Shown: positions 1,810-60,243 of the stretch, piece by piece | How positions within the stretch are numbered: position 1 is the stretch's first letter | How the letters are laid out: each line of letters starts with the position of its first letter | Origin: an uncultured delta proteobacterium | Lineage (GTDB): Bacteria > Myxococcota_A > Polyangia > Polyangiales > Polyangiaceae | Reading direction: 5' to 3' | NCBI GenBank assembly: GCA_963763745.1 | Contig: CAVXQJ010000001.1 | Span: 66,431-130,430, forward strand | DNA length: 64,000 nt | Made by a program: the position numbers and the translations under genes | The notes under the pieces: model-generated | Databases searched by the model: none | Told to the model about the DNA's origin: nothing | Seen by the model: only the letters and a program-made list of their open reading frames with translations

Positions 1810-2640
1810 ACCACGCCGAAAATCGCGGCGGCGATCGCGCCGGCGAGGTTGAACTGCGGCGTCGGCGCGGGGAAGCTCGATCCGAGCGCCGTGATGAGCG
1901 CGCCGACGATCACCTGAAGGAGCGCCACCCACTGATAGAGGCGAAGGCGCGCGATGATCGGCGTCTGCGGCTCGCCGCGATACGACTCTTCGCAGAAGCG
2001 ACCGAGGCCGTTCAAGATCAGATACACGCCGCCGATGAGATGTAGCGCTACGTGCAAGCTCCAGAGCCGCGCGACGACGACCAGCGTCACGACGTTCCAC
2101 AAGATCGAATAGAGCTGCGTCGCGTGGATGCGGGACGTCGTCCAGGTGCGCGAGTCGCACGACGCGCGAGCGCGGGTGGTGATAACGGATGCCGACGGCC
2201 TCCGAGGTTTCGCTGCCATGACAGCATCCCTGAACGAGGCAGCGAATCCGCCCCATGGCCTGGATGTACGGCCCGGCGACCGACGACGGCGCCGAGGAGC
2301 AACCAGATGGGCGTTCCGAGCCACGGCGCGATCGAACGCGGCCGCGCAGATGCCGAGGAGCCCGCCATAGAAACCGTACGGCCGCGAGAGCGCCGCGGAG
2401 CCTTCGATCGTTTGCGCCCAAAGCCCGGCGCCGATCAAGCCGCCGAGCGCGCCAAAGCGCGAGCGTCGCCGAAGTGTCCGGGACCGACGAGCGTGCCGAT
2501 GATGAGGATGCCGCCGCCGCTCGCGAGCAGCTGCCCAGATGCCGTGGTTGATGATGCGCACGGGACCGATTCGCGTCTCGTGCCACGAGTTCGCGATGCG
2601 CTCGGTGAGCGCGCGCAGCGCGCGCCACAGCGTGCCCGCG
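1746..2640 (-). CDS. lgt: Prolipoprotein diacylglyceryl transferase Lgt, frameshifted (at least two frame changes); 5' boundary approximate
   Basis: C-terminal region HATQLYSILWNVVTLVVVARLW...ILNGLGRFCEESYRGEP matches the Lgt HP(S/T)QLYE signature and C-terminal helices. The adjacent frame carries GRIRCLVQGCCHGSETSEAVGIRYHHPRSRV, resembling the Lgt GRIGNFINGELWG...PWG loop. An N-terminal IGPV-like motif lies further upstream in the first frame. Confidence 0.65.
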
Positions 2641-2649
2641 TTCGCCACG

Positions 2650-3316
2650 ATGGCGTACGCGAGACGCTCGCGAGCGATTCCCGCGATGCCTGGTCTCCGG
2701 CGCGAGATCCCGCGGCCACGGCGAGCGCGAGCGCGGGACCGAGCCACGACGAACGCGGCGCTCGCGACCGTCCACGCTCGGCGCGCGAGCGAGCGCGGCC
2801 GATCGCGAGCAGCGACGGCGTCGATCGACGGAACGAGCGCGTGAGAGCGGAATGACGAGCGGCATCGCGAGCAGCGAGCGCGAGCACGACGCGCGCAGAT
2901 CGCGCGGTGCGCGCACGACAGAACGGCGCGAGCGAGCGCGAGGCCGACGGCGCCAGCGTCTTCGGCGTGAAGCGTCGGCGCGCTGAGAGCGAGCCACGGA
3001 ACGAAGCGCGAACACGAGCGCCGAGATGCGCCGCGCGAACGACGGCGCAGATCGTCGCTCGCGGGAGGAAGGCCGAAGCCAGCGGCGCGCCGCGCGCCGA
3101 GCCGAAACGCTGCGTCGAGATCGTGACGCTCGTAACCGAGGACGAGCGCGATCGCGCCGAGCACGACCGCGGGTGAGACGAGCCAGAGGCCGCTCGCGGA
3201 GCCCGTCGCGATCGACACGCCGAAGCAGATCGCGCCGAAGCCCGACGTAGATCGGGTGCGCGAACGAGCGCGTAGACGCCACGCGTGACGAGGCGCGGCG
3301 GCGGGAACGCGTTCAT
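2650..3316 (-). CDS. Possible hypothetical membrane protein (very uncertain; frames unclear)
   Basis: Minus-strand frames between lgt and the next gene contain hydrophobic stretches (FGAICFGVSIATGSASGLWLVSPAVVLGAIALVLGY; FVPWLALSAPTL) but no recognisable domain. High GC makes all six frames open. Confidence 0.15.
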
Positions 3317-53890: not shown

Positions 53891-55627
53891 GTGGACAACG
53901 AGGTCATCGCGCGAACTTTTCTCGAGCTCGCCGACGTGCTCGAGCTCCTCGATGAAGTGCCGTTCAAGGTGCGGGCGTTCCGCGCCGCGGCGCGCGCGAT
54001 CGAAGGAATCGGCGAGCCCATCGCGCCGAAGATCAAGAACGACACGCTCGGCAAAGTTCACGGCATCGGCGACGGCGTCGTGCGTCGCATCAAAGAGCTC
54101 GTCGAGACGGGCAAGCTCCAAGAGCTCATCGACAACAAGAAGAAGCTGCCGCCCGGGTTGATGGAGCTGCTCAACGTCCCCGGCATCGGAATCAAAACGG
54201 CGCAAGAGGTGTGGAAGCAGCGAAAGATCACGACGCTCGATCAGCTCGAAGCCGCCGCCAAAGCGCAGAAGCTCCGGGACCTGCCGCGTTTCGGAGAGAA
54301 GCGCGAAGTGAAGCTCCTCGCGTCGATCGAGGCGTACCGAAAGCGCGCGTCGGGGCCGAAGCGGTGGCTCATGGCGGAAGCGCTCGATCTCGCCGAGGCG
54401 CTCTGCGCGAAGATGCGCGCGGTGCCCGGCGTGCTCCAGTGCGAGTTCGCCGGGAGCTTGCGTCGCCGGCGCGAGACGATCGGCGACATCGACATGCTCG
54501 TCGCGGCAACGCCGGAGTACGCGCCGAAGATCATGGACACGTTCGCGAAGGACGATCAGGTCAGCGAGGTCCTCGCGCACGGCGACACGAAGACGACCGT
54601 CATTCTCAAGAACGGGATTCAGTGCGATTTGCGCGTCGTCGAGAAGAAATGTTTCGGCGCCGCGCTCCAGTACTTCACCGGTTCGAAAGAGCACAACGTC
54701 GCGATGCGCACGATCGCCGTGAAGAAGAAGCTCAAGGTGAGCGAGTACGGCGTGTTCGACGAAAAGGAAAAATCGATCGCAGGCGAAACGGAAGAAGACG
54801 TCTACGAAGCGATCGGCCTCGCGTGGATGCCGCCGGAATTGAGGGAAAATCGCGGCGAAATCGAGGCGGCGAAGAACGACGCGCTTCCCGAGCTCGTCGA
54901 GCTCCGCGATCTCATCGGCGATCTCCACATGCACACGAAGGAGACGGACGGCAAAGCGTCGATCGAAGAGATGGCCGAGGCGGCGATGGCGGCAGGTCGC
55001 AAGTACATCGCGATCACCGATCACTCGCAGTCGCTCACGATCGCGAACGGCGTCGACCGCGAGCGCCTCCGCGAGCACGTGAAGCGCATCCGCGCCGTCG
55101 ACAAGAAGATGAAAGGGAAGATCCGCGTGCTCGCGGGTCTCGAGACGGACATCCTCGCCGATGGCTCGCTCGATCTCGAAGACGATCTCGACGAGCTCGA
55201 TTGGGTCGTCGGCAGCGTGCACTCGAAGCTCGGCATGCCGCGCGCGGAGATGACGAAGCGCATCGTGCGCGCGATCGAGTCGGGCCACATCGACGCGCTC
55301 GGTCATCCCTTCGGGCGTCAGATCGGCCAGCGCGATCCGAGCGATCTCGATCTCGAAGAGGTGCTCAAGGCGCTCGCGAAGACGGGCGTCGCGATCGAGC
55401 TCAATTCGTCGCCGCTCCGGCTCGATGTTCCCGAGAACGGCGCGCGCATGGCGCGAGAGCTCGGCGTGCCCGTCGTGATCGACTCCGACGCGCACTCGAT
55501 TCGCGAGCTTCAATTCTTGAAATACGGCATCGGCATCGCGCGGCGCGCGTGGCTCGGAAAAGAGCACGTGCTCACCGCGCAGCCGGTCGAAACGATCCGC
55601 CAGCACCGCGCCGCGCGCTTGAGTTAG
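53891..55627 (+). CDS. DNA polymerase X family protein with C-terminal PHP (polymerase/histidinol phosphatase) domain
   Basis: N-terminal HhH (ELLNVPGIGIKTAQEV), Pol beta-like nucleotidyltransferase GS...GDIDMLV, then PHP motifs GDLHMHTKETDG, ITDHS, VIDSDAHS. Confidence 0.85.
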   Translation: MDNEVIARTFLELADVLELLDEVPFKVRAFRAAARAIEGIGEPIAPKIKNDTLGKVHGIGDGVVRRIKELVETGKLQELIDNKKKLPPGLMELLNVPGIGIKTAQEVWKQRKITTLDQLEAAAKAQKLRDLPRFGEKREVKLLASIEAYRKRASGPKRWLMAEALDLAEALCAKMRAVPGVLQCEFAGSLRRRRETIGDIDMLVAATPEYAPKIMDTFAKDDQVSEVLAHGDTKTTVILKNGIQCDLRVVEKKCFGAALQYFTGSKEHNVAMRTIAVKKKLKVSEYGVFDEKEKSIAGETEEDVYEAIGLAWMPPELRENRGEIEAAKNDALPELVELRDLIGDLHMHTKETDGKASIEEMAEAAMAAGRKYIAITDHSQSLTIANGVDRERLREHVKRIRAVDKKMKGKIRVLAGLETDILADGSLDLEDDLDELDWVVGSVHSKLGMPRAEMTKRIVRAIESGHIDALGHPFGRQIGQRDPSDLDLEEVLKALAKTGVAIELNSSPLRLDVPENGARMARELGVPVVIDSDAHSIRELQFLKYGIGIARRAWLGKEHVLTAQPVETIRQHRAARLS

Positions 55628-55636
55628 GATGGTCCC

Positions 55637-56008
55637 ATGAGCTTGATCGGCTGCCCGGCGTGTCGTCGTTTGGTTCGCACGAACGAGACGGCGTGTCCGT
55701 TCTGCGGCGTGGGCCTCACACGCGCGCGCATGAAGAAGACGGCGGCGAAGATCGTCGTCGGTGCGGCGGCGGGCGCGGCGGCGCTCTTCAGCGGAATCGG
55801 ATGCGCCTACGGCTGTCCCGACTGCTACCCTCCGGACGCGAGCAACAACGACGCGAACGTGATGGACGCGACGTTCGACGTGAAGTCCGATGCGCCGACC
55901 GACGCGAAGGCGGACGTGATCGATGCGGGCATCGACGCGAAGACGGACGCATCCGACGCAGCAACGGACGCGCCGACCGACGCACAGCTCGACGCCGACG
56001 CGGACTAG
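55637..56008 (+). CDS. Small protein: N-terminal zinc ribbon, one TM helix, short Cys-containing segment and acidic Asp/Ala/Thr-rich repeats; possible substrate/partner of the adjacent radical SAM enzyme
   Basis: CPACRR...CPFCG zinc-ribbon pair. AAKIVVGAAAGAAALFSGIG hydrophobic segment. GCAYGCPDCYPPD, then DAKADVIDAGIDAKTDASDAATDAPTDAQLDADAD. Stop is 2 nt before the radical SAM start. Confidence 0.5.
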   Translation: MSLIGCPACRRLVRTNETACPFCGVGLTRARMKKTAAKIVVGAAAGAAALFSGIGCAYGCPDCYPPDASNNDANVMDATFDVKSDAPTDAKADVIDAGIDAKTDASDAATDAPTDAQLDADAD

Positions 56009-56010
56009 TC

Positions 56011-57231
56011 GTGAGCGCGGAGCGCATCGCCGCGTCCACGCAAGCGAGCACAGGTCTCGTCTACGTCGTGTGGGAGCTCACGCTTCGATGCGATCACGCG
56101 TGCGGCCACTGCGGGAGTCGCGCGGGTCGCGCGCGCGAAGACGAGCTCTCGACGGACGAAGCGCTCGACGTCGTGAAGCAGCTCGCGGAGATGGGCGCGT
56201 TCGAGATCACGCTCATCGGCGGTGAAGCGTATTTGCGCGACGACTGGACGACCATCGCACGCGCCATCGTCGCCGCCGGAATGCGCTGCACGATGACGAC
56301 CGGCGGACGCGGCATCACGCGCGAGCGCGCGCGCGCCGCAAAAGACGCCGGAATCGCGAGCGTCTCCGTTTCGATCGACGGCCTCCGCGAGGCGCACGAC
56401 ACGCTCCGCGGGATTGATGGAAGCTTCGACTCCGCGATGAACGCGATTCGCGAATTGCGCGCCGCGGGGATCGACACGAGCGCGAACACGCAGCTCAATC
56501 GTTTGTCGTGGCGCGATCTCGACGCGCTGCTCGATCGGTTCATCGAGCTCGGTGTGTCGGGTTGGCAGATGCAGCTCACCGTTCCGATGGGCCGCGCAGC
56601 GGACAGACCCGAGTGGCTCCTCCAGCCGTACGAATTGCTCGAGCTCTATCCGCGCATCGCGAGCGTCGCCGAGCGCGGCGCGAAGCACGGCGTGCTCTTC
56701 TGGCCCGCGAACAACATCGGTTACTTCGGTCCACACGAGACGACGCTCCGCGGTCGCGCCGTGCGCGACGATCGCGCGTGGAGTGGATGCGTCGCGGGCA
56801 AGCACGCGCTCGGTCTCGAGTCGAACGGCGATCTCAAAGGTTGCCCGTCGCTCCCGACGACGTCGTACGTGGGCGGCAACGTGCGCGAGCGATCCATTCG
56901 CGAGATGTGGGATCGCGCGCCGGAGATTCGCTTCGTGCGCGACCGCACGACGGACGAGATGTGGGGATTCTGCAAGGATTGTTACTACGCGGACGAGTGC
57001 CGCGCGGGCTGCAGTTGGACGTCGCACGTGTTCTTCGCGAAGCGCGGGAACAATCCGTATTGTCATCATCGTGCGATCGAGCACGACGCGCGCGGTCTTC
57101 GCGAGCGTGTCGTTCGCGTGGAGGCCGCGCCGGGCGCGCCGTTCGATCACGGACGCTTCGAGATCGTCGTCGAGCCCAAAGACGCGCCGCTCCCGGATGA
57201 AAAGCGCAGGCTCCCGATCAGTGCGACGTGA
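56011..57231 (+). CDS. Radical SAM enzyme with C-terminal SPASM domain (peptide/protein-modifying radical SAM maturase family)
   Basis: GTG start. CDHACGHC (CxxxCxxC radical SAM cluster). Glycine-rich SAM motif region ITLIGGEAY. C-terminal auxiliary-cluster cysteines GCVAGKHAL...CPSLP...WGFCKDCYYADECRAGCSW (SPASM-type). ~406 aa with a ~60-aa C-terminal extension. Confidence 0.8.
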   Translation: MSAERIAASTQASTGLVYVVWELTLRCDHACGHCGSRAGRAREDELSTDEALDVVKQLAEMGAFEITLIGGEAYLRDDWTTIARAIVAAGMRCTMTTGGRGITRERARAAKDAGIASVSVSIDGLREAHDTLRGIDGSFDSAMNAIRELRAAGIDTSANTQLNRLSWRDLDALLDRFIELGVSGWQMQLTVPMGRAADRPEWLLQPYELLELYPRIASVAERGAKHGVLFWPANNIGYFGPHETTLRGRAVRDDRAWSGCVAGKHALGLESNGDLKGCPSLPTTSYVGGNVRERSIREMWDRAPEIRFVRDRTTDEMWGFCKDCYYADECRAGCSWTSHVFFAKRGNNPYCHHRAIEHDARGLRERVVRVEAAPGAPFDHGRFEIVVEPKDAPLPDEKRRLPISAT

Positions 57232-58644
57232 CTGTGAGTGAGACGGATGCCGCGCCTTGGTCGGGTTGGATGAAGAGCTGACCGGGCGAGCTCGTCGCGT
57301 CGTAGCAGCCGCCCGTGAGACCGACGTCGTACCCGTTCGGATACGCGCGCGTCGGAAACGAAACCACCGTGACGTTCGTCGCGCCCGAGCCCGGCGCATA
57401 CGAGAGCGTGAACGTCGACGTCGTCGTGTCGAACCCCGTGACGATCGACGCGCCCGCGACCGCGCGCGCGAACGGACGAACGAGCGCCTGCGCGACGGGC
57501 AGCTCGTTGCCGCTCGCGTCGACGACCCAGTCGGACTCGCTGTTCCACAAATCCGCCGACACGCTGTACTCCCACTCCGTGCCGTTCATCCCGAGCGCGT
57601 CGAATGCGTCGAAGTGCGCCTGCATGTACGGCAGCGTCGACGCGAGTTGATTGAACGCGCCGAACTCGCCGACGAACGTCGGCACGTTCCACTGCGCACC
57701 GACGGCTTGCCACTTCTGCATGTTGGGAAGGACGGTCTCCGGATTGCTCGTGAGCGGATAGAAGTGCGGCGCGAAGACGACGCCGTCGCCGGGGGGACGC
57801 GTGAGCGCAGTCGCGAGGTTCACGCCGGCGAGCCCGGTCGGGTCGACGAACACGAGCGACGTCGGCGCCAGCCCGCGCGCGTGCGCGACGAACTTCGCCA
57901 TGAACGTCGCTGAGCGTCGTCGACGAGAACGTCGCGTCGTCCAGCGATCCCGACGACGGCTCGTTGAACGGCTCGAACCCGAGCACGCCCGGCTTGTCCT
58001 TGTATCTTGCAATCATCACGTCCCACGCCGTGAAATACGAGTCCTGCACGCCGTTCGTGTTCGCCCAGAACGCGTCGAACGCGGCGACCACGTCCTGATC
58101 GTTGAAGTACTCGAACGACCACTGCGGGCAGTCGTGATGCGGCGCGGGCGGATTCGTCAGCGTCCAAGCGGGGAAGCCGTCGCCGCACAAAATTCTCCGC
58201 GTACACGTCTTGGTGAAAATCGACGACGGTCCAAATCCCGCGCGCCCATGCGGCGTCGAGGATCGCGTCGTAGTGCGCGAGCCAAGTCGAATCGTTTTGT
58301 CCCTGCGTTGGCTCGAGCGCGGCCCACGTGAACGGAACGCGCATCGCGTCGATCCCCCACGACGCCGCGCGACCCATGTAGCTCGCGAGCGCGCCGTCGA
58401 AGTCGTCGCCGAAATCGAACGGCACGTATGGCGCGAACTTGCTGCGACCGCCCGCGTCGACGCCGCGCAAGAACACGGTGCGCCCGAGGCTGTCGGTGAA
58501 CATCGTCCCGTTCGTCGTGAGCCTGTAGTCCGCTTGCGGCGCGGCGATCGTGCATGCGCGCGCCGTGGGCTTCGGCGGCGAGGAGTCACAACGTGGAACG
58601 AACGCGAGGAGCGCGATCGACGCGGCAAAGAGAAGCGGGCGCAT
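57218..58644 (-). CDS. Glycoside hydrolase family 5 protein (secreted), split by at least two frameshifts
   Basis: Signal MRPLLFAASIALLAFVPRC. GH5 blocks RVPFTWAALEP and GIWTVVDFHQDVY in the first frame, GFEPFNEP (catalytic acid region) in the second, GEFG plus a C-terminal beta-rich domain in the third. Confidence 0.65.
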
Positions 58645-59163: not shown

Positions 59164-60243
59164 GTGAAGCTTCCGTTTCAGCCGCCCGTCGCGCCGATGC
59201 TCGCCAAGCTCACGAGCGGGATCCCCGAAGGCGAGAACTTCATCTTCGAGCCCAAGTGGGACGGGTTTCGCGCGCTCGTCTTTCGCGACGGCGACAACGT
59301 CCAAATCCAGAGCCGCGATCTCAAACCGCTCCAACGATATTTTCCCGAGCTCGCCGCGCCGCTTCGCGCGGAGCTCCCCGAGCGCTCCGTCTTCGATGGC
59401 GAGATCGTCATCGCGCATGGCGGCGTTCTCGATTTCGAAGCGCTCCTTCAACGGATTCACCCGGCCGAGTCGCGCATCAAGATGCTCGCCGCGCAGTGGC
59501 CCGCGTCGTACGTCGCGTTCGACATGCTCGCGCTCGGCGACGAAGACCTCCGCGAGAAACCGCAAAAGGAACGGCGCGCGAAGCTCGAAGCCGCGCTCGG
59601 TCACGCGAAGCCACCGATCTACATGACGCCCGCGACGCGCGACCGTGCGCTCGCGACGGATTGGTTCAATCGCTTCGAAGGCGCGGGCCTCGATGGCGTC
59701 GTCGCGAAGGACGAGAACCTCGTCTACTCGCCCGGCAAGCGCACGATGATCAAGATCAAGCACGAGCGCACCATCGACTGCGCCGTCGCGGGATTCCGCT
59801 GGTACAAAGACTCGAAGGACGTGGCGATCGGATCGCTCTTGCTCGGTCTCTACGACGACGAAGGGCGTTTGCAGCACGTCGGCATTTGCGCGTCGTTCAA
59901 CGCCGCGCGTCGCAAGGAGCTCCTCGCCGAGCTCGCGCCGCTTCGTGAGAACGCGACGGAGCATCATCCGTGGAAGGAGTGGGCCGAGCACGACGCGGCG
60001 AATGCGAAGGCGCGCAGGCCCGGCATGAAGAGCCGATGGAACGCGAACAAAGATCTCTCGTGGGAGCCGCTCCGCGTCGAGCGCTCGTGCGAGGTCACGT
60101 TCGATCACATGCAAGGCCGCCGCTTCCGCCACTCGTCGCACTTCAAACGATGGCGCCCCGACAAACCGCCGAAGGATTGCACCTACGCGCAGCTCGACGT
60201 CACGCCCGCGTACGAGGTCGCGAAGATCTTCGGCGGAGCGTGA
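59164..60243 (+). CDS. ATP-dependent DNA ligase, LigD-type stand-alone ligase domain
   Basis: Motif I EPKWDGFR (KxDG), adenylation and OB-fold blocks (DGEIV; GLDGVVAKD; IKIK); 359 aa. Confidence 0.8.
   Translation: MKLPFQPPVAPMLAKLTSGIPEGENFIFEPKWDGFRALVFRDGDNVQIQSRDLKPLQRYFPELAAPLRAELPERSVFDGEIVIAHGGVLDFEALLQRIHPAESRIKMLAAQWPASYVAFDMLALGDEDLREKPQKERRAKLEAALGHAKPPIYMTPATRDRALATDWFNRFEGAGLDGVVAKDENLVYSPGKRTMIKIKHERTIDCAVAGFRWYKDSKDVAIGSLLLGLYDDEGRLQHVGICASFNAARRKELLAELAPLRENATEHHPWKEWAEHDAANAKARRPGMKSRWNANKDLSWEPLRVERSCEVTFDHMQGRRFRHSSHFKRWRPDKPPKDCTYAQLDVTPAYEVAKIFGGA

What the first reader, a model, noticed from the sequence alone, without database searches (positions are those of the whole stretch)
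55637..57231. Radical SAM/SPASM enzyme tightly coupled to a small zinc-ribbon, TM, acidic-repeat protein: candidate peptide/protein modification pair
A 123-aa ORF (CPxC...CPxC zinc ribbon, one TM segment, GCAYGCPDCYPPD, then D/A/T-rich repeats) stops 2 nt before a 406-aa radical SAM protein with CDHACGHC and a SPASM-type auxiliary cysteine cluster. SPASM radical SAM enzymes are mostly peptide or protein maturases (thioether, Calpha-Cbeta or formylglycine chemistry) and are commonly adjacent to their substrates. A precursor-like partner with a zinc ribbon and membrane anchor would be atypical and possibly new.
Basis: partly seen in the sequence, partly recalled or inferred. Interest (0 to 1): 0.65.

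Follow-up and report, generated by a model that had tools for sequence, protein, structure and literature searches.

The report
Tyramine-splicing enzyme with membrane-anchored substrate
A radical SAM enzyme closely related to the known "spliceases" (which cut a tyramine unit out of a Tyr-Gly site to leave a reactive keto-beta-amino acid in the protein backbone) sits next to its probable substrate, a small protein with a zinc ribbon, a membrane or lipoprotein anchor and one conserved Ala-Tyr-Gly site. The pairing is conserved in most of the related genomes examined, but the substrate family carries no annotation in the databases searched.

Summary
A 123-aa ORF (55637-56008) ends 2 nt before a 406-aa radical SAM/SPASM gene (56011-57231).

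**Enzyme.** It is 49% identical over its full length (E 6e-119) to PlpX, an experimentally validated tyramine splicease. It scores 521 bits on TIGR04103 (the PlpX/PcpX family) and 456 bits on TIGR03913, below both curated cut-offs, so it belongs to a third, uncurated clade.

**Small ORF.** It is a real gene. A partner with the same zinc ribbon lies next to the enzyme in 67 of 79 related loci, almost always on the same strand. No other neighbouring gene is conserved. Invariant residues are the four ribbon cysteines, a lipobox-like Cys and Tyr-Gly. Across 76 partners, 200 of 215 tail tyrosines are followed by Gly. The consensus site P-L-Y-G-x-P matches the PlpA1 site RPLYGLPI.

**Zinc ribbon.** In the sister (DUF1843/"GDL") clade the same ribbon is fused to the enzyme's C-terminus, which suggests it is a docking module.

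**Not supported.** Thioether, sulfatase-maturase and heme readings.

**Status.** The chemistry is inferred, not measured. Novelty: a new variant of a known kind.

The parts
55637..56008 (+). Small precursor-like protein (123 aa): zinc ribbon, hydrophobic anchor with a lipobox-like Cys, one AYG site, acidic disordered tail
   Evidence: The ORF is listed. It is called as a gene in an independent assembly. GC3 is 0.86. Homologues P0001-P0003 were found. Partners sit in the same position in L001-L005. The wider family has at least 1477 members.
55652..55705 (+). Zinc ribbon, residues C6-C23 (CPAC...CPFC)
   Evidence: C6, C9, C20, P21 and C23 are invariant in alignments A2, A3 and A4. AlphaFold2 gives pLDDT 86-94 for residues 1 to about 28, modelled as two beta hairpins. 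A profile built from this ribbon also hits the C-termini of the DUF1843-linked enzymes.
55742..55804 (+). Hydrophobic segment (residues about 36-55) ending in the lipobox-like S-G-I-G-C56, preceded by the basic stretch RARMKK
   Evidence: Read directly from the sequence. C56 is invariant. A lipobox-like x-x-[AGS]-C is present in 71 of 76 partners, with the Cys at median residue 61. Processing by signal peptidase II is inferred, not shown.
55805..55813 (+). A57-Y58-G59, the predicted tyramine-splice site (X-Y-G)
   Evidence: Y58 and G59 are invariant. Across partner tails 200 of 215 Tyr are followed by Gly. X-Y-G is the documented splicease target (PMC11414181; PMC11626197).
55832..56005 (+). 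D/A/T-rich low-complexity acidic tail (residues 66-123)
   Evidence: Its sequence is not conserved. It contains only one weak 21-nt x 2.1 repeat. AlphaFold2 pLDDT is about 50-63.
56011..57231 (+). Radical SAM/SPASM enzyme (406 aa), predicted tyramine splicease of a clade not covered by a curated family
   Evidence: It is 49% identical to PlpX with E 6e-119. It scores 521 bits on TIGR04103 against a cut-off of 725, and 456 bits on TIGR03913 against a cut-off of 592. Thousands of homologues exist.
56089..56112 (+). Radical SAM cluster motif C27-x3-C31-x2-C34 (CDHACGHC)
   Evidence: Read from the sequence. C27, C31 and C34 are invariant in A1.
56788..57063 (+). SPASM region carrying seven invariant cysteines (C260, C278, C321, C324, C330, C334, C351)
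   Evidence: Pfam SPASM matches residues 260-325. The invariant columns are listed. The cysteines align with those of PlpX.

Best explanation
This is a two-gene ('binary') spliceotide-type system.

**Proposed steps**
1. The 406-aa radical SAM/SPASM protein is a tyramine splicease.
2. It acts in the cytoplasm on the 123-aa protein encoded just upstream. It excises a tyramine equivalent (C8H9NO, -135.07 Da) from Tyr58 of the A57-Y58-G59 site and rejoins the backbone. [quoted passage not shown]
3. The substrate's N-terminal zinc ribbon, perhaps together with the helix-forming segment after it, serves as the docking or activating element. Leader peptides or the separate PlpY protein supply this function in characterised systems.
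4. The hydrophobic segment then takes the C-terminal part across the membrane. The conserved lipobox-like Cys56 suggests lipidation and cleavage by signal peptidase II. That would remove the ribbon like a leader and leave a membrane-tethered acidic protein with the ketoamide two residues from its lipidated N-terminus.
5. Ketoamides are electrophilic protease-inhibitor warheads, so a cell-surface protease trap or shield is the most plausible role.

**Shown here**
- Gene structure.
- Homology of the enzyme to validated spliceases.
- Conserved enzyme-partner linkage.
- Near-exclusive Tyr-Gly usage in the partner tails.
- The zinc ribbon swapping between enzyme and substrate in different clades.

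**Inferred**
- The splicing chemistry itself.
- The docking role of the ribbon.
- Export and lipidation.
- The biological function.
For: **1. Enzyme homology**
- 49% identity over 385 residues to PlpX, E 6e-119.
- The PlpX and PcpX sequences were taken from supplement file 14 of PMC9484694. They score 677 and 729 bits on TIGR04103.
- The window enzyme scores 521 bits on that model. The next unrelated family scores only 159 bits.

**2. Literature**
- PlpX-type enzymes excise tyramine at X-Y-G.
- Binary systems without a Y protein exist in hundreds of pathways.
- Sources: PMC11414181, PMC11626197, PMC9811515, PMC11002830.

**3. Conserved linkage**
- Zinc-ribbon partners lie directly up- or downstream, on the same strand in all but two loci, often in tandem arrays of 2-4. 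They occur in 54 loci under strict criteria and in 67 of 79 loci under relaxed criteria.
- The 64-kb window contains exactly one such ORF, and it lies 2 nt from the enzyme.
- No other neighbouring gene is conserved.

**4. Motif**
- 200 of 215 tail Tyr are followed by Gly, against a Gly frequency of 0.18 (binomial P 2e-127).
- The consensus is G-[IVPA]-x-[PA]-[LAVM]-Y-G-[AG]-P-P-x-D. The natural PlpA1 site is RPLYGLPI.
- Leu or Met precedes the Tyr in 42% of sites, as in the known LYG and MYG sites.

**5. Invariant residues**
- In the window's own subfamily: C6, C9, C20, P21, F22, C23, C56, Y58, G59.

**6. Sister clade**
- DUF1843-linked enzymes reach or approach the TIGR03913 cut-off (559-602 bits against 592; two of the three pass).
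- The DUF1843 profile begins at 'PLYG'.
- Those enzymes carry the same zinc ribbon fused at their C-terminus: profile E 4e-5 to 2e-3 with the search space forced to 1e6, and no hit in the other 76 enzymes.
Against: - No mass spectrometry exists for this pair or this clade. The chemistry is transferred from enzymes that are about 49% identical.
- The enzyme is below the curated cut-off of both related NCBIfam families.
- The window's partner has a single YG. Its second tyrosine, Y64, is followed by Pro.
- The YG lies immediately after a membrane-spanning segment, and the tail is predicted to end up outside the cytoplasm. Modification would therefore have to precede export.
- The lipobox Cys is at residue 56, far later than in canonical lipoprotein signal peptides.
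- No PlpY-like gene is present, and the proposed substitute (ribbon or helix) is untested.
- The key survey paper (Scott et al. 2022, Chem 8:2659) could not be read here.
Confidence: 0.65

Rival explanations
1. The pair is a genuine maturase-substrate pair acting at the conserved Tyr-Gly. In this uncurated clade, however, the enzyme performs a different radical reaction, such as a Tyr cross-link, epimerisation or hydroxylation, rather than tyramine excision.
For: The clade lies below both curated family cut-offs. The flanking motif YG[AG]PP is more proline-rich than the characterised sites. No product data exist for this clade in the papers I could read.
Against: The enzyme shows full-length 49% identity to PlpX, including the C-terminal region after the SPASM domain. 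Tyr-Gly is invariant, which is exactly the pair of residues that splicing requires. The site consensus P-L-Y-G-x-P matches PlpA1. A review reports 27 validated splicease-substrate pairs from diverse bacteria (PMC10849128).
Confidence: 0.18
2. The small protein is mainly an accessory or activator of the enzyme, a zinc-ribbon analogue of the PlpY protein. The true substrate would be encoded elsewhere.
For: In the sister clade the same ribbon is part of the enzyme itself, and the substrates (DUF1843 proteins) are separate genes. The window's partner has only one YG.
Against: YG is invariant in the window's subfamily. Across the family 93% of tail tyrosines are followed by Gly. An accessory protein would not need this. 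Partners also occur in tandem arrays of paralogues, as precursors do. The two roles can coexist, with the ribbon docking and the tail serving as substrate.
Confidence: 0.07
3. Thioether (sactipeptide or ranthipeptide-like) or other Cys-based maturation of the Cys-rich GCAYGCPDCY segment, in line with the first reader's example chemistries.
For: Three cysteines lie within 8 residues. Many SPASM enzymes make thioethers.
Against: C60 and C63 are replaced by Met, Leu or other residues in close relatives, and most family members have no Cys in their repeats. Sactipeptide maturase models score only 79-95 bits, against 521 bits for the splicease family.
Confidence: 0.03
4. A non-RiPP housekeeping radical SAM enzyme, such as heme or heme d1 biosynthesis (AhbD/NirJ-like, as some database records name relatives) or a sulfatase maturase. 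The small ORF would then be incidental.
For: Some relatives are labelled 'heme biosynthesis protein' by their sources. There are weak matches to AhbD and NirJ models.
Against: AhbD scores 156 bits against a cut-off of 500, and the NirJ models score 107-138 bits against cut-offs of 500-650. No heme or sulfatase genes flank the pair. The only conserved neighbour is the zinc-ribbon YG protein.
Confidence: 0.02

Closest known systems
Type I spliceotide systems PlpXY/PlpA and PcpXY/PcpA (Pleurocapsa; NCBIfam TIGR04103 / InterPro IPR026482)
   Same: Both are radical SAM/SPASM enzymes homologous over their full length (49% identity to PlpX). The substrate carries X-Y-G, and the site context P-L-Y-G-x-P resembles PlpA1 RPLYGLPI.
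   Different: The window enzyme scores 521 bits on TIGR04103, below the 725 cut-off. There is no PlpY-like gene. The substrate has no Nif11 or nitrile-hydratase-like leader but a zinc ribbon plus a membrane or lipobox anchor. The organism belongs to the Polyangia-type Myxococcota, not the cyanobacteria.
Binary (type II) spliceotide systems such as RhaX/RhaA, RcsX/RcsA and RasX/RasA of Rheinheimera
   Same: Both have a two-component architecture without a Y protein. [quoted passage not shown]
   Different: Those precursors are short soluble leader-core peptides with an alpha-helical leader. Here the N-terminal element is a zinc ribbon followed by a membrane segment, and most family members carry 2-5 repeated sites. 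I could not compare sequences because RhaX and RhaA were not available to me.
[quoted passage not shown]
   Same: This is a sister clade at 55-57% identity. The partner domain DUF1843 begins with PLYG. The same CxxCxRHV...CP[FH]C zinc ribbon is present.
   Different: In that clade the ribbon is fused to the enzyme's C-terminus and the partners are soluble DUF1843 proteins. Here the ribbon is on the substrate. The window enzyme scores 456 bits against the 592 cut-off, and no DUF1843 gene is nearby. NCBI nevertheless gives the GDL name to one 67%-identical relative, P0033.
Bacterial lipoproteins (Lgt/LspA pathway)
   Same: The hydrophobic segment ends in a lipobox-like [x][x][AGS]-C and is preceded by basic residues. 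This holds in 71 of 76 partners.
   Different: A folded zinc ribbon of 25-45 residues precedes the signal-like segment, which puts the Cys at about residue 56-61. Cleavage and lipidation are untested.

Membership tests
Radical SAM superfamily (PF04055) | CxxxCxxC motif binding the SAM-cleaving 4Fe-4S cluster, plus a match to the family profile | tested here: met
   C27-x3-C31-x2-C34 is read from the sequence and is invariant in 22 homologues. Pfam Radical_SAM scores E 3e-23, 83 bits, against a cut-off of 29.5.
SPASM-domain radical SAM enzymes (PF13186) | C-terminal domain with a seven-cysteine pattern for two auxiliary clusters | tested here: met
   Pfam SPASM scores 29.8 bits against a cut-off of 21.5. 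C260, C278, C321, C324, C330, C334 and C351 are invariant.
Tyramine spliceases / spliceotides | Enzyme homologous to PlpX/PcpX | tested here: met
   BLASTP against PlpX gives 49% identity over 385 aa, E 6e-119. The top NCBIfam hit is the PlpX/PcpX family.
Tyramine spliceases / spliceotides | Membership of the curated equivalog TIGR04103 (score at or above 725 bits) | tested here: not met
   The window enzyme scores 521.5 bits. Seven other zinc-ribbon-linked enzymes score 500-524 bits.
Tyramine spliceases / spliceotides | Adjacent precursor carrying conserved X-Y-G site(s) | tested here: met
   A57-Y58-G59 is invariant in the subfamily. Across the family 200 of 215 tail Tyr are followed by Gly.
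Tyramine spliceases / spliceotides | [quoted passage not shown] | not testable with these tools
   This needs co-expression and tandem mass spectrometry.
Tyramine spliceases / spliceotides | Activating element: a separate Y protein (type I) or a leader helix (binary types) | tested here: inconclusive
   No small Y-like ORF is present, since the two genes are only 2 nt apart. The ribbon and following segment are candidates because the ribbon is enzyme-fused in the sister clade. No model of the enzyme-substrate complex could be made.
GDL-motif trio system (TIGR03913 + DUF1842/DUF1843) | Enzyme score at or above 591.75 bits and adjacent DUF1843/DUF1842 proteins | tested here: not met
   The enzyme scores 456.4 bits. 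The small ORF has no Pfam match. True members L064 and L074 score 594-602 bits and have DUF1843 genes upstream.
Sactipeptide/ranthipeptide thioether synthases | Family-level homology and conserved acceptor/donor Cys in the substrate | tested here: not met
   StsB scores 95 bits against a cut-off of 625, and SkfB scores 79 bits against 300. C60 and C63 are not conserved.
Heme/heme d1 radical SAM enzymes (AhbD, AhbC, NirJ) | Score above the family cut-offs, plus pathway genes nearby | tested here: not met
   Scores are 107-156 bits against cut-offs of 500-650. The flanking genes are PolX, GH5, an outer-membrane efflux protein and a DNA ligase.
Bacterial lipoprotein precursors | Lipobox [LVI][ASTVI][GAS]C at the end of an N-terminal signal peptide | tested here: inconclusive
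   The window has S-G-I-G-C56 after a hydrophobic stretch, and 71 of 76 partners have a lipobox-like motif. The Cys lies at residue 56 behind a folded zinc ribbon, which is not canonical. Cleavage is untested.

The most novel reading that the evidence does not exclude
A large family, mainly from Polyangia-type Myxococcota with some Planctomycetota, makes membrane-anchored or lipidated surface proteins whose backbones carry one to five enzyme-installed ketoamide (alpha-keto-beta-amino acid) sites. Substrate recognition would use a zinc ribbon, a recognition module unlike the known PqqD-type elements or helical leaders. Evolution has placed this ribbon either on the substrate (this clade) or on the enzyme (the DUF1843/GDL clade). 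The latter is a natural counterpart of the engineered enzyme-leader fusions.
Probability: 0.35. Interest if true: 0.7.

Novelty: new variant of a known kind. Interest (0 to 1): 0.52.

Why it matters
Tyramine splicing is one of the few ways cells put beta-amino acids and electrophilic ketoamide groups into gene-encoded proteins. The products characterised so far are potent protease inhibitors and are useful handles for protein labelling.

If the prediction holds, three things follow:
- **Scope.** The chemistry would extend from small secreted peptides to a large, unannotated family of membrane-tethered proteins. The family has at least 1477 members in metagenomes, and a partner lies next to the enzyme in most of the related Polyangia-type genomes sampled. 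This points to a cell-surface role, for example protection from proteases in predatory or social soil bacteria.
- **Engineering.** The zinc ribbon appears on the enzyme in one clade and on the substrate in another. This gives a concrete, testable hypothesis for how these enzymes recognise substrates, which matters for engineering leader-independent spliceases.
- **Annotation.** Relatives are currently named 'heme biosynthesis protein', 'GDL motif peptide-associated maturase' or simply 'radical SAM protein'. Their partners are named 'hypothetical protein'.

Tried and rejected
**Searches that gave nothing usable**
- Family searches of the small ORF: no Pfam or NCBIfam match at E <= 0.01; relaxing to E <= 1 gave only weak zinc-ribbon hits (E 0.06-0.1).
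- Literature searches for GDL motif, TIGR03913/TIGR04103, YGAPP-type motifs, and radical SAM + zinc ribbon + Myxococc* gave nothing on this partner type.
- The key survey (Scott et al. 2022, doi 10.1016/j.chempr.2022.09.017) and the mechanism paper PMC11879070 are not held. I therefore cannot say whether this precursor type is already listed there.
- PDB sequence search: there is no solved splicease. The best hits are SkfB, a cytosylglucuronate decarboxylase and PqqE, matching only the radical SAM core.
- No supplements are held for the two most relevant splicease papers.

**Ideas tested and dropped**
- Other conserved cassette genes (protease, exporter, Y protein): tblastn of the window's neighbours against 79 loci, and all-against-all clustering of locus ORFs, found none.
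- Natural enzyme-ribbon fusions among the close homologues returned by the protein search: the long ones (434-464 aa) have only unstructured extensions. Fusions were found only in the DUF1843-linked loci, and those could not be submitted for structure prediction.
- AlphaFold2 of the small protein: only the ribbon is confident. The anchor and tail are not modelled, so I ran no fold search.
- Tandem-repeat reading of the acidic tail: only a weak 2-copy array.
- Promoter and terminator scan: nothing above chance.

**Readings considered and rejected**
- Anti-sigma-factor-like reading of the zinc-ribbon plus membrane-segment architecture: rejected from the sequence alone. The HxxxCxxC motif is absent and no sigma factor gene is adjacent.
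Full report
**1. The observation**

The window contains a + strand ORF at 55637-56008 (ATG, 123 aa). Its TAG stop is followed by two bases and then GTG at 56011. The frame from 56011 stays open to the stop at 57229-57231, giving a 406-aa product.

An independent public assembly carries the same two genes with the same spacing.

The small protein has these features:
- CPAC and CPFC at residues 6-9 and 20-23.
- A basic patch (RARMKK).
- An uncharged hydrophobic stretch ending in S-G-I-G-C56.
- The segment AYGCPDCYPPD.
- A D/A/T-rich tail. Only one weak 21-nt x 2.1 tandem array is detectable, so 'acidic repeats' overstates it.

GC at the third codon position is 0.86, like the flanking genes.

The enzyme has:
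- CDHACGHC at residues 27-34.
- Pfam Radical_SAM and SPASM matches.
- Seven cysteines invariant across 22 homologues.

**2. What the enzyme is**

[quoted passage not shown] The next family scores 159 bits. Heme, PQQ, mycofactocin and sactipeptide families score far lower.
- *Link to PlpX.* A review states that PlpX, the founding tyramine splicease, belongs to IPR026482 (PMC11002830). I recovered machine-read PlpX and PcpX sequences from a supplement of PMC9484694. They score 677 and 729 bits on TIGR04103. The window enzyme aligns to PlpX over 385 residues at 49% identity, E 6e-119, including the region after the SPASM domain. The supplement text has reading errors, so this identity is if anything an underestimate.
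- *No solved structure.* No splicease structure exists in the PDB.

**3. The partner is a conserved gene family linked to the enzyme**

The small ORF has only three direct homologues in 5.8 billion proteins. All three share the ribbon, the hydrophobic segment and GCAYG.

I fetched 79 genomic loci encoding relatives of the enzyme. Most are from Polyangia/Myxococcota metagenome-assembled genomes, with a few from Planctomycetota and Acidobacteriota.

Most loci have a protein of the same design next to the enzyme, on the same strand:
- It lies either immediately upstream or immediately downstream.
- It often occurs in tandem arrays of two to four paralogues.

The shared design is:
- an N-terminal ribbon (L-x-P-C-P-x-C-x-R-H-V-R-x-x-E-x-x-C-P-F-C);
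- a basic R-L-x-R-A-A stretch and a hydrophobic segment ending in a lipobox-like A-[AG]-C-[GS];
- one to five copies of a Tyr-Gly motif separated by D/A/G/T/P-rich spacers.

*Census*

| Criterion | Result |
|---|---|
| Strict (ribbon, hydrophobic segment, at least one YG, same strand, within 1.5 kb) | 76 non-identical partners in 54 loci |
| Relaxed | 67 of 79 loci; of these, 2 lie on the opposite strand, 1 lacks YG and 4 are cut by contig ends |
| DUF1843 gene instead of a ribbon partner | 3 loci |
| No partner found | 9 loci |

- *Controls.* In the 64-kb window the only ribbon-plus-anchor ORF in any of the six frames is the one beside the enzyme. Nothing else is conserved around the pair.
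- *Family size.* A profile of the N-terminal part finds at least 1477 proteins. All are 'hypothetical' and none has a Pfam domain.

**4. The conserved site is Tyr-Gly**

- *Invariant residues.* In the window's subfamily they are the four ribbon cysteines with P21 and F22, C56, Y58 and G59. C60 and C63 vary. The same positions except F22 (nearly invariant) are invariant in a 27-sequence alignment of the wider family.
- *Tyr-Gly usage.* Over all partner tails, 200 of 215 tyrosines are followed by glycine, while glycine makes up 18% of residues (binomial P about 2e-127).
- *Consensus.* It is G-[IVPA]-x-[PA]-[LAVM]-Y-G-[AG]-P-P-x-D.
- *Known substrates.* PlpA1 has RPLYGLPI and PlpA2 has AAMYGVV.
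[quoted passage not shown] Natural sites are mostly MYG and LYG. Systems outside the cyanobacteria lack the accessory Y protein. The products inhibit serine and cysteine proteases (PMC11414181; PMC11626197; PMC10533398; PMC9811515). In the partner family Leu or Met precedes the Tyr in 42% of sites.

**5. The zinc ribbon moves between substrate and enzyme**

Three Acidobacteriota loci (L061, L064, L074) have no ribbon protein. Instead a small DUF1843 gene lies upstream, and the Pfam profile of that domain starts at 'PLYG'.

Their enzymes reach or approach the TIGR03913 cut-off (559-602 bits; two of the three pass it). Seven ribbon-linked enzymes score 420-484 bits on TIGR03913 and 500-524 bits on TIGR04103. 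Partner type therefore tracks enzyme clade.

The full ORFs of the three DUF1843-linked enzymes are 467-483 aa. Near the C-terminus (residues about 413-447) they carry a ribbon, E-L-I-I-C-[RH]-G-C-[DN]-R-H-V...C-P-[FH]-C, followed by a basic helix-like segment that ends the protein.

A 32-column profile built only from partner N-termini hits exactly these three:
- E-values are 4e-5 to 2e-3 with the search space forced to one million.
- It hits none of the other 76 enzymes.

This also explains the faint partner hits to positions 426-457 of the TIGR03913 profile. A domain found on the enzyme in one clade and on the substrate in the next argues that the ribbon contacts the enzyme.

It parallels the engineered enzyme-leader fusion that made a binary splicease leader-independent (PMC11414181).

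A neighbour-joining tree (no bootstrap) places the window with L001-L005, all of which have a single upstream GCAYG partner.

**6. Topology**

- *Structure prediction.* AlphaFold2 with a 37-sequence alignment models residues 1 to about 28 confidently (pLDDT 86-94) as two beta hairpins. The rest is left at low confidence.
- *Orientation.* Basic residues before the hydrophobic segment and an acidic tail after it fit an N-in, C-out orientation.
- *Lipobox.* A lipobox-like motif is present in 71 of 76 partners, with the Cys at median residue 61. Cleavage and lipidation are inferences.
- *Timing.* Radical SAM enzymes are cytoplasmic, so modification would have to precede export.

**7. Most likely mechanism**

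This is a binary spliceotide-type pair:
1. The enzyme docks on the ribbon, and perhaps on the following helix.
2. It splices tyramine out of A57-Y58-G59.
3. The protein is then inserted or exported, and possibly lipidated at C56, which would discard the ribbon like a leader.
4. This leaves a tethered acidic chain with a ketoamide near its N-terminus.

I put about 0.65 on the splicing chemistry, about 0.45 on lipoprotein processing and about 0.25 on a protease-trap function.

**8. Rivals**

- *Different radical reaction at the same YG.* It cannot be excluded without mass spectrometry (0.18).
- *Small protein as a pure accessory.* The YG statistics and the tandem paralogues argue against it (0.07).
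- *Thioether chemistry.* The cysteines are not conserved and the sactipeptide maturase models score low (0.03).
- *Heme or sulfatase-maturase roles.* Profile scores and gene context argue against them (0.02).

**9. Comparison with what is known, and novelty**

- *Known.* The kind of system (splicease plus YG substrate) is established. It is reported to be widespread, in 189 genera with 27 validated pairs (PMC10849128).
- *Outside curated knowledge accessible here.* The enzyme clade lies below both curated family cut-offs. The partner architecture (zinc ribbon, lipobox-like anchor, YG-P-P repeats) has no family model, and none of the listed best hits carries a name other than 'hypothetical protein'. 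The exchange of the ribbon between substrate and enzyme also falls here.
- *Caveat.* I could not read Scott et al. 2022, which classified splicease types by precursor. The Myxococcota type may already be listed there.
- *Rating.* I therefore rate it a new variant of a known kind, with moderate interest.

**10. Limits**

- All functional statements are sequence-based.
- The PlpX and PcpX sequences are machine-read text with errors.
- The tree has no support values.
It is inferred to be a Polyangia-type myxobacterium only from its nearest relatives.

Noticed in passing
L061:6001-7420, L064:6001-7405, L074:6001-7450 (+ strand): The DUF1843/'GDL'-linked enzymes carry, near their C-terminus, the same CxxCxRHV...CP[FH]C zinc ribbon that sits at the N-terminus of the partner proteins elsewhere. 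A basic helix-like segment follows it (KAYEALLNLL, QAYDQLLELI, KAYQRLLKLL).
   Followed up: yes
window 57147-58644, minus strand: The glycoside hydrolase family 5 gene convergent with the radical SAM gene (3' ends overlap by 14 nt) is split over reading frames. Pfam Cellulase positions 22-85 are in one frame. Positions 148-268 plus the GH5 C-terminal domain are in another. The middle part, with an FEPFNEP motif, appears to lie in a third frame, where Pfam reported no match. It is either a pseudogene or the assembly has indel errors.
   Followed up: partly
window 53891-55627 (+) and 59164-60243 (+): A family X DNA polymerase with a PHP domain ends 9 nt before the small ORF, and an ATP-dependent DNA ligase lies 2 kb downstream. 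Neither is conserved next to the cassette in relatives, so the adjacency looks incidental. The 9-nt gap could still mean co-transcription.
   Followed up: partly
L003 + L058 (JANYHY01), L004 + L071 (JAXLYN01), L006 + L024 (DAOMZH01), L070 + L077 (JADGRC01): Some genomes carry two cassettes. In two cases one is of the window's type (a single upstream GCAYG partner) and the other is of the multi-YG repeat type. This suggests paralogous systems with different substrates.
   Followed up: partly
L054:461-976 and L054:~2140-3195: This locus has an atypical arrangement. Upstream lies a protein with three exact-looking repeats, IVAHPMYGAPIRDPIFPPKNPGQPP, and no recognisable ribbon. Downstream lies a longer protein with a CPSCQQHV...CPNCG ribbon. 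In the tree this enzyme sits next to the DUF1843-linked clade.
   Followed up: no
L009:1613-2317 and L018:5300-6001: The partner proteins here (233-234 aa) have the ribbon, the anchor and a single VYGPAQPS site. They then continue into a conserved C-terminal domain of about 100 aa ending in ...TGKVTCK. The YG site can therefore be embedded in a larger protein.
   Followed up: no
P0033, P0039, P0053: [quoted passage not shown] The first two are probably misleading for this clade, which lacks DUF1843 partners and heme genes.
   Followed up: partly
window 12001-44000: G+C is steadily lower here (0.60-0.63) than in the flanking parts of the window (0.64-0.70), over about 32 kb. I did not examine the gene content.
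   Followed up: no
window 55814-55834 (residues 60-66, CPDCYPP): The extra cysteines and a second tyrosine (Y64, followed by Pro rather than Gly) are shared only with P0001. Their role (disulfide, metal binding or none) is unexplained.
   Followed up: no
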